Made by a program: the position numbers | Assembly: GCF_002571385.2 (NCBI RefSeq) | Contig: NW_019218048.1 | Location: 51,680 to 115,679 of the forward strand | DNA from: Stylophora pistillata | Taxonomy: Eukaryota | Reading direction: 5' to 3' | Length of the DNA: 64,000 nucleotides | Shown here: positions 3,001-5,426 of the stretch, one piece after another | How the letters are laid out: every line of letters begins with the position of its first letter | How positions within the stretch are numbered: the first letter of the stretch is position 1

Positions 3001-5426
3001 AAAGAATTCTAGAGCGAATGCGATTATGGTAGACCACTCGATCTACCCTAGAGGCGGATCCAGGAATTTTTAAATGGGGGAGGGGGTCCAAACTTTGGTT
3101 CAAAAAGGACTGTTGGACTCTTTGAGGCAAATTACATCTCCCCCACACCCCCTCCCACCAGTCGCGGTTGCAAGTTATAATTCCTTTGCCGCTTATCGTT
3201 TATTTGGATTCATTAAAAAAATCAGCCAGTTAAAATGATATACGATCCTGTCTCCAAGTTGTAAGCGTCAGGTTTGATAGGGGGTCCGTACCCCCCGGAC
3301 CCTCCCCCTGGATGCGCCACTGTACCCAGCATGATATGCATGTGAGGAATCCTCAAGTAACGTTTTATATTTCAAAATGCTAACGACCTGTTGTGTTTCA
3401 AAATATCACTATCGGAAATGTAGACTCCTTTCTCATTTCTGGAACGAAATATGGCGATGAATCATTCCTGACTCAACAATAAATCGCTGGAACGATATTT
3501 TACTGAAGCGATATATCCTGACGATATACCGCACGCTCTACGATAATCTCTGTATCGATATATCACCGCAACGATATATCGTTGGCATAGTTTATCGTCG
3601 GAACGAGGCATCGCGAGAAAGTCCCGATATCTCGTCGATTTATCGTTGTAAGGTGTCAAAATAATTAACGATATATCGCCAATATATCGGCGATATATCG
3701 GAAGAACGAAGCGTGATAAACCGCGATAATCGTTTACATTACTGTTGCACAGTACAGTATGAGTAAGTTGTTTAACCAAATAAGTCATTTACTAAGCACA
3801 AGGGAAAGGTGGCGTTTTAAAAGGATATAGTTTCATTATTGCTGCACAGACCGACTAGTTTTCTCCCTGGAATCGATTACTTCCTTTGTATATAATATAT
3901 GACTTTTTTGAAGGGTTTTCAGTCGACCATCAATACTCCTCTTCGGGCTTTTGCCAAGATCACATTGGAATCCCTTGCATACTGGAATATACCAAGAATG
4001 GCTGGATTCAGATTTGCGAATTTATCAATTACACTTGTAATCTTAACTGCTCCGTCAACAACTGTTCCTCAAACTGCTACCCCGTCAAAGTCTGCGCAAA
4101 AAGTTGTAGTAAGGCTTACAGACCATTGGTAGCTGATTGTCCTGACACGATATACAACGAGAGTCATCAGGGTTGGTCGAGGTGCAATACAACAAAATGC
4201 AATCTGACAAGTGGCGAACAAACATTTGGAACAGAACATACTTGCCGCTATGAGGGTGATCAGTGTAATCTAAACTGCAGGGGGATAAACTGCAAACAAA
4301 CTTGCAAAGAAAGAATCACCGGTGAGTACTATAACAAAGCAAATAAGCAAGCAGCACACTCAACTAACGTTAAATATTGATGTGAAGAGCCCTGGTGTAT
4401 GAAGTTTGTCTATTGGTGGCGTGTTTAAGTGTCTCCGCAGTAGTTTTTGGACTTAACCAGACTACCTATGGTAAATATGTGCATTATATTCTCAAGAAAA
4501 GCTCGTGCAAGGCAAATAAAAATACGTAATGACAAAGCACCTTTCAAAAATATTAACTTTTGTCTTAGTGTTTGGATGGCATCAGAAATACTAAGTCAAT
4601 GGACTTGTTATTCGATCATTCAACCATTTATTTATTGAGTCAAGTAAGCAATCGACATATATTTGTCCTCCATTTGCGAAGTAGCGGATTATCTATAAAA
4701 TTAATGGAAAAATATCCAAAAATTTAAGAAAAAGAAAAAAATTCATATAGTTATCAATTGAGAATGACATTCGTTTGATAAGAGAATGTTGGTATAAGTA
4801 TAACTACTTGATTGGGGCACAAGTCAAACTTTTTCCTTTTTTTTCCTCTGAAAACTTTGCAGTATTAGCAGTAACATCGTCACCATCTCTCTTACCTGCG
4901 ACGGCAAGGTCATCAATGATAAGCTTGCAACCTTCCTCATCGCCTTTGATGTCACTGGCACTATCGCTCTCGACGTGGCCATTGCCATCGCCATCATCGA
5001 TATCACCATCTTCGTCTCCGTCGCCTTCGAATGCAATTCAAAAGCTGGTGTGTTTTGTAATTGATTACTCTTTTTGTACTTTTCCATACTTTAGGATCTT
5101 AGTGGTCCATACAAATAACTGTCATTTTCGTTATCTTAGGCAAATGACTATGTCTCCAAACTTGGCGGACTTGATAGCAGCAGAAACACTTCTTTGCGGG
5201 TATCTGATTCTATTAAAGACTGCTATGTATCATCATTAATAATAAATACAGTAGGACGTGCTTTTACATGTAGGTGTCTATTTAACAATTCTTTCACGAG
5301 CGCGCGTTGGATATGAGATAATAGATAGCCAATGAGGCGCGTAGCGCCGAGTTGACTATAATCAAATATTAGATTATGGTATATTGGCACATATACCATA
5401 ATGGCTAAGTCAATAAAAAGTCTTGT

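What the first reader, a model, noticed from the sequence alone, without database searches (positions are those of the whole stretch)
3923..4321. Unnamed single-exon Cys-rich extracellular domain of about 130 aa
Seen in three copies: 3923-4321 (17 Cys), 27503-27901 (16 Cys) and 58410-58790 (14 Cys). Conserved elements are GIPC, W.Q, CNLNC, YRP(L/M)V..C and GDQC...C....C.Q.CKE. There is an internally repeated C-x3-C-x4-C-x3-C unit (CNLNCSVNNCSSNC; CNLNCRGINCKQTC) and many N-x-S/T sequons. I cannot match it to EGF, TSP1, HRM, SEA, Ig, pentraxin or lectin spacing. Inference: a disulfide-laddered repeat or solenoid fold used as an aGPCR ligand-binding module. Cys gains and losses between copies (e.g. 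KSC to KSW in A2) suggest rapid change.
Basis: partly seen in the sequence, partly recalled or inferred. Interest (0 to 1): 0.72.

Follow-up and report, generated by a model that had tools for sequence, protein, structure and literature searches.

The report
Orphan cysteine-rich module in coral adhesion receptors
A real, single-exon, cysteine-rich and sugar-decorated protein module of about 130 residues sits at the outer tip of a tandem cluster of coral adhesion-type G-protein-coupled receptors, matches no described domain family, and is found in very few sequences; it is a modestly interesting orphan domain, not a surprise.

Summary
The window is Stylophora pistillata (coral) DNA, not human. 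Three exons (3923-4321, 27503-27901, 58410-58790) have canonical splice sites and lengths of 399, 399 and 381 nt. They are phase 1-1 and encode 17, 16 and 14 Cys. They lie in three of four tandem plus-strand adhesion GPCR genes, upstream of a Ser/Pro stalk, GAIN/GPS and 7TM exons. One gene also has a C-type lectin exon in front. The fourth gene has the lectin exon but lacks this exon.

A public model (LOC111335138) contains copy A2, matching it at 100%. Ka/Ks for A1 against A2 is 0.47, so the exon is under constraint. Cys are kept more often than other residues, and N-x-S/T sequons are about three times the shuffled expectation.

Pfam, PDB sequence and profile searches, Foldseek and the ESM Atlas gave no match. 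Both AlphaFold models are low-confidence (pLDDT 52 and 48), so the fold is unknown. A profile search of 1.84 billion representatives found 9 relatives. The three named relatives are all S. pistillata.

The two halves share a C-x6-C-x3-C-x4-C unit, which is moderate support for an internal duplication. A ligand-binding role is inference from position only.

The parts
3923..4321 (+). Copy A1 of the Cys-rich module exon (399 nt, phase 1-1, 132 full codons, 17 Cys, 6 sequons)
27503..27901 (+). Copy A2 of the exon (399 nt, 16 Cys, 6 sequons); 100% identical to residues 29-160 of public protein P0001 (LOC111335138, Stylophora pistillata)
58410..58790 (+). Copy A3 of the exon (381 nt, 126 codons, 14 Cys, 7 sequons), 44-46% identical to A1
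4863..5074 (+). Gene A1: Ser/Pro-rich stalk exon following the module. Bounds are approximate: 5' from an acceptor candidate, 3' from the end of the tblastn match
5833..8713 (+). Gene A1: GAIN-like exons and the GPS exon (Pfam GPS 43.8 bits on ORF 8297-8512; reads CSCNHLTHFAVL) plus the TM1 exon
10042..12806 (+). Gene A1: 7TM (7tm_2) and C-terminal exons
28462..35072 (+). Gene A2 downstream of the module: Ser/Pro stalk exon, GAIN-like exons, GPS (ORF 31277-31519, 41.2 bits), 7tm_2 exons and C-terminal exon
55762..56174 (+). Gene C (holds copy A3): C-type lectin exon upstream of the module (Lectin_C 43.8 bits), phase 1 donor
59830..62883 (+). Gene C downstream of the module: Ser-Pro repeat stalk exon (6-nt period array 59984-60293), GAIN-like and GPS exons. 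No match to later exons of P0011 lies before the window end
39892..50316 (+). Gene B, the comparator. It is the same kind of receptor: Lectin_C exon ending at 40268 in phase 1, Ser-Pro exon, GPS, 7tm_2. It has no Cys-rich exon

Best explanation
SHOWN.
- The three stretches are real coding exons of three paralogous adhesion GPCR genes of the coral Stylophora pistillata.
- Each exon encodes one module of 126-132 residues with 13-14 conserved Cys columns and two or three conserved N-glycosylation sequons.
- The module lies N-terminal to a Ser/Pro-rich stalk, the GAIN/GPS region and a secretin-type 7TM domain.
- In one gene here, and in public relatives, it directly follows a C-type lectin domain.
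- The exon is symmetric (phase 1-1). It is present in gene C and absent from its closest paralogue, gene B, between the same two flanking exons, so it behaves as a frame-preserving cassette.
- It has no detectable relative in Pfam or among solved structures. Only a handful of sequences in very large protein sets carry it.

MODERATELY SUPPORTED.
- The module arose by internal duplication. Each half ends in a C-x6-C-x3-C-x4-C unit predicted, at low confidence, to form beta-hairpins. The halves are joined by a three-Cys linker carrying the Y-x-P-L-V-x2-C motif.
- A variable Cys pair (A1 positions 10 and 92) is gained or lost together, which suggests an optional disulfide that ties the halves.

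INFERRED, from position and from general knowledge of adhesion GPCRs (recalled, not tested here).
- The module is a rigid, disulfide-pinned, glycosylated head at the far end of the receptor. It either binds an extracellular partner itself or presents the neighbouring lectin domain.
- Pull on this head through the mucin-like stalk would be passed to the GAIN domain. The tethered peptide that follows the HL/T site (THFAVL... in A1) would then engage the 7TM bundle.
For: Organism and coding status:
- A2 equals public P0001 at 96.6-100% per exon.
- Splice sites are canonical and lengths are multiples of 3.
- Ka 0.124, Ks 0.265, Ka/Ks 0.47 over 128 codons; Fisher p 0.036 for synonymous against nonsynonymous differences.
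- Cys are kept preferentially.

Context:
- GPS is above the Pfam cut-off in genes A1, A2 and B. 7tm_2 exons were found in those three genes. Lectin_C was found in genes B and C.
- Collinear exon maps come from tblastn of P0001 and P0011.
- P0011 is a full-length model carrying the module between Lectin_C and GPS.

Cassette behaviour:
- The lectin exons of B and C end in phase 1.
- There is no trace of the module in B.

Orphan status.

Rarity:
- 9 proteins at E<=1e-3 among 1,835,955,588 representatives.
- 3 of 689 and 9 of 146 word-sharing candidates.

Internal repeat.

Extracellular marks: sequon excess. Conserved sequon columns at A1 N88 (10/11), N93 (7/11) and N41 (7/11) in the 13-sequence alignment.

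C10/C92: both Cys in 5, neither in 8, only one in 1, of 14 sequences.
Against: - No signal-peptide exon was found for A1 or A2. The first exon of the A2 public model has no signal peptide, and its A1 counterpart is not an open frame. Secretion of these two copies is therefore assumed from the family, not shown.
- The A2 public model stops before the GPS exon.
- The fold is unknown (pLDDT 52.4 and 47.9).
- The internal-repeat signal is short (19 columns). In the second test 1 of 150 shuffles reached it.
- The C10/C92 covariation rests on related sequences and is not phylogenetically corrected.
- Cys numbers are odd in A1 (17), and A2 has lost a well-conserved Cys (position 61, Cys in 16/19). 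The disulfide map may therefore differ between copies.
- No binding or expression data of any kind were available.
Confidence: 0.6

Rival explanations
1. The module is a strongly diverged member of a known class of small disulfide-pinned beta-hairpin modules (EGF or laminin-type EGF, furin-like/growth-factor-receptor Cys-rich repeats, TNFR-type Cys-rich domains). It would be beyond the reach of sequence HMMs, and so not a new fold.
For: - It is predicted all-beta, with hairpins centred on the Cys clusters.
- It has short, regularly spaced Cys units repeated twice.
- 14 of 18 family members covering that column have Cys at the column of A1 Tyr109. Those that also keep Cys107 carry a C-x-C step just before the second unit. 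This recalls EGF-type spacing, a resemblance from memory rather than from a call.
Against: - No Pfam family at E<=10 on the three copies.
- None inside the module at E<=1 on 15 relatives.
- No PDB chain at E<=10 with two profiles and two half-domain queries. The only two rows returned (E 0.25 and E 1.4) are unrelated enzymes or proteins of unknown function.
- Foldseek best TM 0.26.
- The ESM Atlas gave no named cluster.
- HMMER's filters and the poor models limit what these negatives mean.
Confidence: 0.25
2. The module has no ligand of its own. It would be a rigid, glycosylated spacer that lifts the C-type lectin domain (where present) above the mucin-like stalk, and it is dispensable, as gene B shows.
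For: - Gene B keeps the lectin, stalk, GPS and 7TM exons without the module.
- Sequon density is high.
- Constraint is moderate, Ka/Ks 0.47.
Against: - No lectin exon was found in the window for A1 or A2. There the module would be the only globular part ahead of the stalk. An N run upstream of A2, and the window start upstream of A1, leave room for missed exons.
- Non-Cys surface-type positions are also conserved across paralogues at about 40% identity: W27 16/17, Q29 16/17, N93 18/18, L94 16/18.
Confidence: 0.3
3. The exons are not functional protein-coding parts. They would be pseudo-exons or decaying remnants carried along in a tandem duplication.
For: - A2 has lost a conserved Cys.
- The public model of A2 is truncated and lacks a signal peptide.
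- No protein identical to the A1 or A3 exon was returned.
- Relatives P0007 and P0008 look like frame-disturbed predictions.
Against: - All three frames are open over 126-132 codons, while the other frames carry several stops.
- Splice signals are intact.
- Ka/Ks is 0.47, with synonymous change in excess.
- Cys are retained at 13/17 where overall identity is only 44-46%.
- Downstream GAIN/GPS/7TM exons of A1 and A2 read through without stops inside the matched exon segments.
Confidence: 0.05

Closest known systems
Adhesion GPCR ectodomains with N-terminal adhesion modules (public names on the relatives: 'adhesion G protein-coupled receptor L4-like' for P0011 and 'putative G-protein coupled receptor 133' for P0009, both S. 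pistillata)
   Same: Mosaic ectodomain, then stalk, GAIN/GPS with an HL/T-type site, then a secretin-type 7TM. The modules are encoded by symmetric exons.
   Different: The module between the lectin domain and the stalk belongs to no described adhesion-module family. The vertebrate names are automatic labels and no orthology was shown.
Small disulfide-rich repeat modules (EGF / laminin-EGF, furin-like, TNFR Cys-rich domains); compared from memory only
   Same: Dense, regularly spaced Cys, predicted beta-hairpins, extracellular and glycosylated context.
   Different: No HMM or PDB sequence match. The spacing C-x6-C-x3-C-x4-C(-x3-C) and the GIPC / W-x-Q / Y-x-P-L-V motifs were not recognised by any model.
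Cnidarian minicollagen / NOWA cysteine-rich domains (pattern recalled from memory: C-x3 repeated, ending in CC; NOWA also carries a C-type lectin domain)
   Same: Cnidarian-specific short C-x3-C periodicity, and association with a C-type lectin domain in one protein.
   Different: None of the three window copies has a CC doublet and the spacing differs. No PDB chain of that kind came back. The host protein here is a receptor, not a capsule-wall protein.

Membership tests
Adhesion GPCR (host genes of the module) | GPS motif at or above the Pfam gathering score | tested here: met
   GPS scores 43.8, 41.2 and 42.3 bits (cut-off 22.5) on ORFs 8297-8512, 31277-31519 and 44030-44254. Gene C is supported only by a tblastn match to P0011 543-621.
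Adhesion GPCR (host genes of the module) | Secretin-type 7TM domain | tested here: met
   7tm_2 hits on exon ORFs of genes A1, A2 and B. P0011 scores 164.1 bits over 595-829. No 7TM exon of gene C was found in the window.
Adhesion GPCR (host genes of the module) | GAIN domain upstream of GPS | tested here: inconclusive
   Pfam GAIN on P0001 scores 23.8 bits, below the 26.5 cut-off.
Adhesion GPCR (host genes of the module) | Module exon spliced into the same mRNA as the GPS and 7TM exons | tested here: inconclusive
   True in the public model P0011, which is another locus. P0001 joins the A2 module to GAIN-like exons but stops before GPS. For A1 and A3 there is only collinearity. The joined-exon step was left out and no transcript data were available.
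Any Pfam-A family (EGF, TSP1, HRM, SEA, Ig, pentraxin, lectins and all others) | hmmscan match over the module | tested here: not met
   0 families at E<=10 for 3 of 3 copies. On 15 relatives at E<=1 there were only four sub-threshold rows (E 0.11-0.59) on short proteins and none on the module of the long ones.
Any solved structure | Sequence or fold similarity to a PDB chain | tested here: inconclusive
   Sequence: nothing meaningful in 6 searches. Fold: 0 matches at E<=0.001 and best TM 0.26, but the query model had pLDDT 52.4, so this says little.
Minicollagen/NOWA-type Cys-rich domain (pattern recalled) | C-x3-C periodicity ending in a CC doublet | tested here: not met
   No CC doublet in any of the three translations; the spacing is C-x3-C-x4-C-x3-C. 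The defining pattern is from memory, not from a call.
Internally duplicated module | Self-similarity of the two halves beyond composition | tested here: met
   hhalign aligns 19 columns. Score 20.9 against shuffles of mean 9.0 and max 17.2, 0 of 200 reaching it. Score 18.7 with 1 of 150 reaching it. The strength is moderate.

The most novel reading that the evidence does not exclude
A new disulfide-rich fold that arose within a narrow coral lineage by duplication of a roughly 20-residue Cys unit. It would have spread as a phase 1-1 cassette exon among tandemly expanding adhesion GPCR genes. There it would work beside a C-type lectin domain as a fast-changing recognition head for microbes, symbionts or substrate cues, with gain and loss of Cys pairs tuning its shape.
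Probability: 0.25. Interest if true: 0.55.

Novelty: new variant of a known kind. Interest (0 to 1): 0.36.

Why it matters
Adhesion GPCRs are read through the modules at their tips. A module that no database recognises marks a set of coral receptors whose partners cannot be guessed by homology.

Corals depend on cell-surface recognition for settlement, symbiosis and immunity. A lineage-restricted head paired with a C-type lectin is therefore a reasonable candidate for such recognition.

For domain databases it is a clean case. The bounds are exact exon bounds, there is a 20-sequence seed, 13-14 Cys columns are conserved, and an internal repeat is present.

It is not a surprise to a specialist, because invertebrate genomes hold many orphan Cys-rich modules.

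Tried and rejected
- **The listing of cluster members on P0002-P0010.** The sources of those nine proteins stay unknown. P0012-P0018 carry only the label 'ena' and no name, and I did not try to trace them.
- **Fold search.** I did not search with the second, poorer model.
- **ESM Atlas.** Best score 0.78 to an unnamed cluster, then no usable named cluster.
- **Signal peptide for A1 and A2.** Short N-terminal queries from P0002, P0004 and P0011 gave only chance-level hits. They also showed that the N-terminus of P0002 resembles intron read-through.
- **Pfam scans of the rest of the window.** I scanned 150 of 176 plus-strand ORFs of 55 aa or more. I then scanned the other 26, plus 101 of the 150 minus-strand ORFs of 55 aa or more (those of at least 62 aa). 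Of 186 small ORFs in four intergenic regions I scanned 150, and re-scanned 39 ORFs at E<=1. Apart from the receptor exons there are only two sub-threshold mobile-element traces and a few other sub-threshold rows (Ocular_alb, Frizzled, Chordopox_A33R, Osw5, BRINP, JMY, Spt20_SEP, DUF6465, TrAA12), which I read as overlap with the receptor exons or as noise.
- **Inverted-repeat test** on the A1-specific insertion upstream of the exon: 0 pairs.
- **Literature.** Six searches found nothing on this module. Of PMC9897584 I saw three passages and of PMC12960093 six; neither bears on it. All other papers were seen as search listings only. No supplements were opened.
- **Not done.** The genome collection holds only bacteria and archaea, so I did not use it. 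No DNA of relatives could be fetched. I searched the spliced gene model exon by exon and left the joined step out.
- **Human DNA.** Nothing in the window was taken for human.

Full report
**1. What is there**

The window is coral DNA. Searching with the translated first copy returned one protein, P0001. It is named by NCBI 'uncharacterized protein LOC111335138 [Stylophora pistillata]'. Mapped back by tblastn, its exons match the second copy's gene at 96.6-100%, and the Cys-rich exon itself matches at 100%. All three named relatives found later are also S. pistillata. Nothing in the window was taken for human.

Each copy is preceded by a pyrimidine tract and ttttcag, and is followed by gtgagt. 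The lengths are 399, 399 and 381 nt. The frame starts at the third base, so both flanking introns are phase 1.

This fits P0001. Its Phe28 needs one base from the upstream exon plus the first two bases of the exon. Its Glu161 needs the last base of the exon plus the first two bases of an acceptor candidate at 28462.

In that frame the copies give 132, 132 and 126 residues with 17, 16 and 14 Cys. The other frames are full of stops. tblastn at E<=10 finds these three loci and nothing else.

**2. Is it more than chance?**

Between A1 and A2 the exon has Ka 0.124 and Ks 0.265, giving Ka/Ks 0.47 over 128 codons (Nei-Gojobori). Synonymous differences are in excess (Fisher p 0.036).

| Comparison | Cys kept | Other residues kept | p |
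|---|---|---|---|
| A1 vs A2 | 16/17 | 79/115 | 0.04 |
| A1 vs A3 | 13/17 | 40/115 | 0.0025 |

N-x-S/T sequons number 6, 6 and 7 against about 2 expected from shuffles (P<=0.004).

**3. Surroundings**

Pfam scans of stop-to-stop ORFs, exon by exon, were combined with tblastn maps of P0001 and P0011. Together they show four plus-strand adhesion GPCR genes in tandem.

| Gene | Order of parts found | Extent |
|---|---|---|
| A1 | module, Ser/Pro exon, GAIN-like exons, GPS (43.8 bits), 7tm_2 exons, C-terminal exon | 3923 to about 12806 |
| A2 | same order as A1 | 27192 to about 35072 |
| B | C-type lectin exon, Ser-Pro repeat exon, GPS, 7tm_2; no module | 39892-50316 |
| C | C-type lectin exon, module copy A3, Ser-Pro repeat exon (6-nt period array), GAIN-like and GPS exons | 55762 to at least 62883; no later exons found before the window end |

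The lectin exons of B and C both end in phase 1. The 1-1 module exon can therefore be present (C) or absent (B) without changing the frame. B shows no remnant of it.

That symmetric phase 1-1 exons typify shuffled extracellular modules is established knowledge that I recall, not a result of a call.

The matched downstream exon segments of A1 and A2 contain no stops. A1 reads HLT at the GPS site and A2 reads HFT.

I searched the spliced model exon by exon and left the joined step out. The public models P0001 and P0011 served in its place.

**4. Relatives**

- A profile of the three copies, run against 1,835,955,588 representative proteins, found 9 with E<=1e-3, 6 with E<=1e-10 and none with E<=1e-30.
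- Read by eye, most look like fragments of the same kind of receptor: lectin, module, Ser/Pro stalk, GPS, TM1. The short ones hold little beyond the module.
- Word-indexed searches with wider profiles added P0011. It is a full-length 886-aa 'adhesion G protein-coupled receptor L4-like' of S. pistillata from another locus, found as one of 3 hits among 689 candidates.
- They also added seven unnamed single-exon ORFs labelled only 'ena', among 9 hits of 146 candidates.
- Those ORFs begin ...FSV... and end ...GEY or ...GEC. That is what A1 gives when read through ttttcag| and |gtgagt, so the exon bounds are shared.
- Pfam on P0011 gives Lectin_C 41-148, GPS 532-578 and 7tm_2 595-829, with nothing on the module at about 155-280.
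- The family falls into at least six lineages at about 35-50% identity.

**5. Anatomy of the module** (20 sequences)

- Cys columns held by at least 84% of covering sequences are A1 positions 18, 31, 38, 42, 47, 57, 61, 72, 87, 114, 118, 123 and 127.
- Positions 107 and 109 behave as alternatives (10/18 and 14/18).
- Variable positions are 10 (6/16), 51 (2/18, only A1 and A2) and 92 (7/18).
- Positions 10 and 92 are both Cys in 5, neither in 8, and only one in 1, of 14 sequences. This suggests an optional bridge between the halves. The sequences are related and I applied no phylogenetic correction.
- Conserved non-Cys positions include P17, L20, E21, W27, Q29, V69, N93, L94, I121 and Q125.
- Profile-profile comparison of the halves aligns 19 columns (QICEFINYTCNLNCSVNNC with HTCRYEGDQCNLNCRGINC in A1).
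  - Test 1: score 20.9, with 0 of 200 column shuffles reaching it.
  - Test 2, larger alignments: score 18.7, with 1 of 150 reaching it.

**6. Fold and known families**

| Search | Result |
|---|---|
| Pfam on the 3 copies | 0 families at E<=10 |
| PDB, single sequence | one noise row, E 0.25 |
| PDB, first profile | 0 rows |
| PDB, second profile | one noise row, E 1.4 |
| PDB, the two halves | 0 rows each |
| AlphaFold2, 12-row alignment | mean pLDDT 52.4, pTM 0.45; four strands in each half |
| AlphaFold2, 11-row alignment | mean pLDDT 47.9, pTM 0.46; mostly strands plus one helix |
| ESM Atlas | best 0.78 to an unnamed cluster; no named cluster |

The fold is therefore undetermined. A ladder or solenoid is neither supported nor excluded.

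**7. How it most likely works**

- Shown: position, coding status, constraint and modularity.
- Inferred: a disulfide-pinned, glycosylated head that binds a partner or presents the lectin domain. It would pass tension through the Ser/Pro stalk to the GAIN domain, so that the peptide after the HL/T site activates the 7TM bundle. That general mechanism of adhesion GPCRs is recalled knowledge.

Weak points:
- No signal-peptide exon was found for A1 or A2. An N run upstream of A2, and the window start upstream of A1, may hide exons; I left the N runs as they are.
- One mRNA running from the module to the 7TM is documented only for P0011.
- No binding or expression data were available.

**8. Novelty**

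Six literature searches found nothing on this module. Passages of two papers were read and do not bear on it.

It is an undescribed module family in a well-known receptor class. Named carriers are confined to one coral species so far, and the true range is untested.

It is of use to domain curators and coral biologists but is not surprising to a specialist. Interest 0.36.

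Noticed in passing
window 39892-41387 versus 55762-60538: Genes B and C are close paralogues (67-86% DNA identity in blocks). C carries the Cys-rich exon in a 3.6-kb interval between the lectin exon and the Ser-Pro exon. B has only 0.7 kb there and no trace of the exon. This is a frame-preserving presence/absence of a phase 1-1 exon.
   Followed up: partly
window 45531-46489 and 47228-48169: A large inverted duplication with 959-bp arms at 93% identity, about 0.74 kb apart, inside an intron of gene B between 7TM exons. 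No Pfam family was found on its ORFs. It is possibly a foldback-type mobile element.
   Followed up: no
window 16470-16589 and 17120-17311: Relics of adhesion GPCR 3' exons lie between genes A1 and A2. One piece is TM7-like, 45% identical to P0011 786-825. The other is similar at DNA level to the interval between the last two matched exons of A2. Together they suggest a dead partial copy from the tandem expansion.
   Followed up: partly
window 1146-1310 (+) and 15462-15752 (+): These are the only mobile-element or virus-like traces found. One ORF piece matches a reverse transcriptase model below threshold (RVT_1, 20.1 bits against a 29.6 cut-off). Another matches GIY-YIG below threshold (18.6 against 22.6). 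The neighbouring ORFs fall in different frames and match nothing, so the elements are too decayed to count their breaks.
   Followed up: partly
window 31361-31480 versus 8381-8500: At the GPS site gene A2 reads HFT, where A1 and the relative P0011 read HLT. Whether this affects autoproteolysis is unknown.
   Followed up: no
window 27192-27278 and 3020-3070: The first exon of the public A2 model encodes no signal peptide and uses a weak donor. The matching A1 stretch is not an open frame. About 330 bp (roughly 3035-3362) has no counterpart in the A2 region. The 5' ends of both genes are unresolved.
   Followed up: partly
window 59984-60293: A hexanucleotide array (period 6, about 52 copies) encodes a Ser-Pro dipeptide repeat in the stalk exon of gene C. 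A similar array starts near 41019 in gene B.
   Followed up: no
window 2023-2174, 8880-9267, 9079-9265, 9612-9992: Short dispersed and inverted repeat copies (80-91% identity) lie in and upstream of gene A1. Several sit in the intron between the TM1 and TM2 exons. They are probably miniature mobile elements.
   Followed up: no
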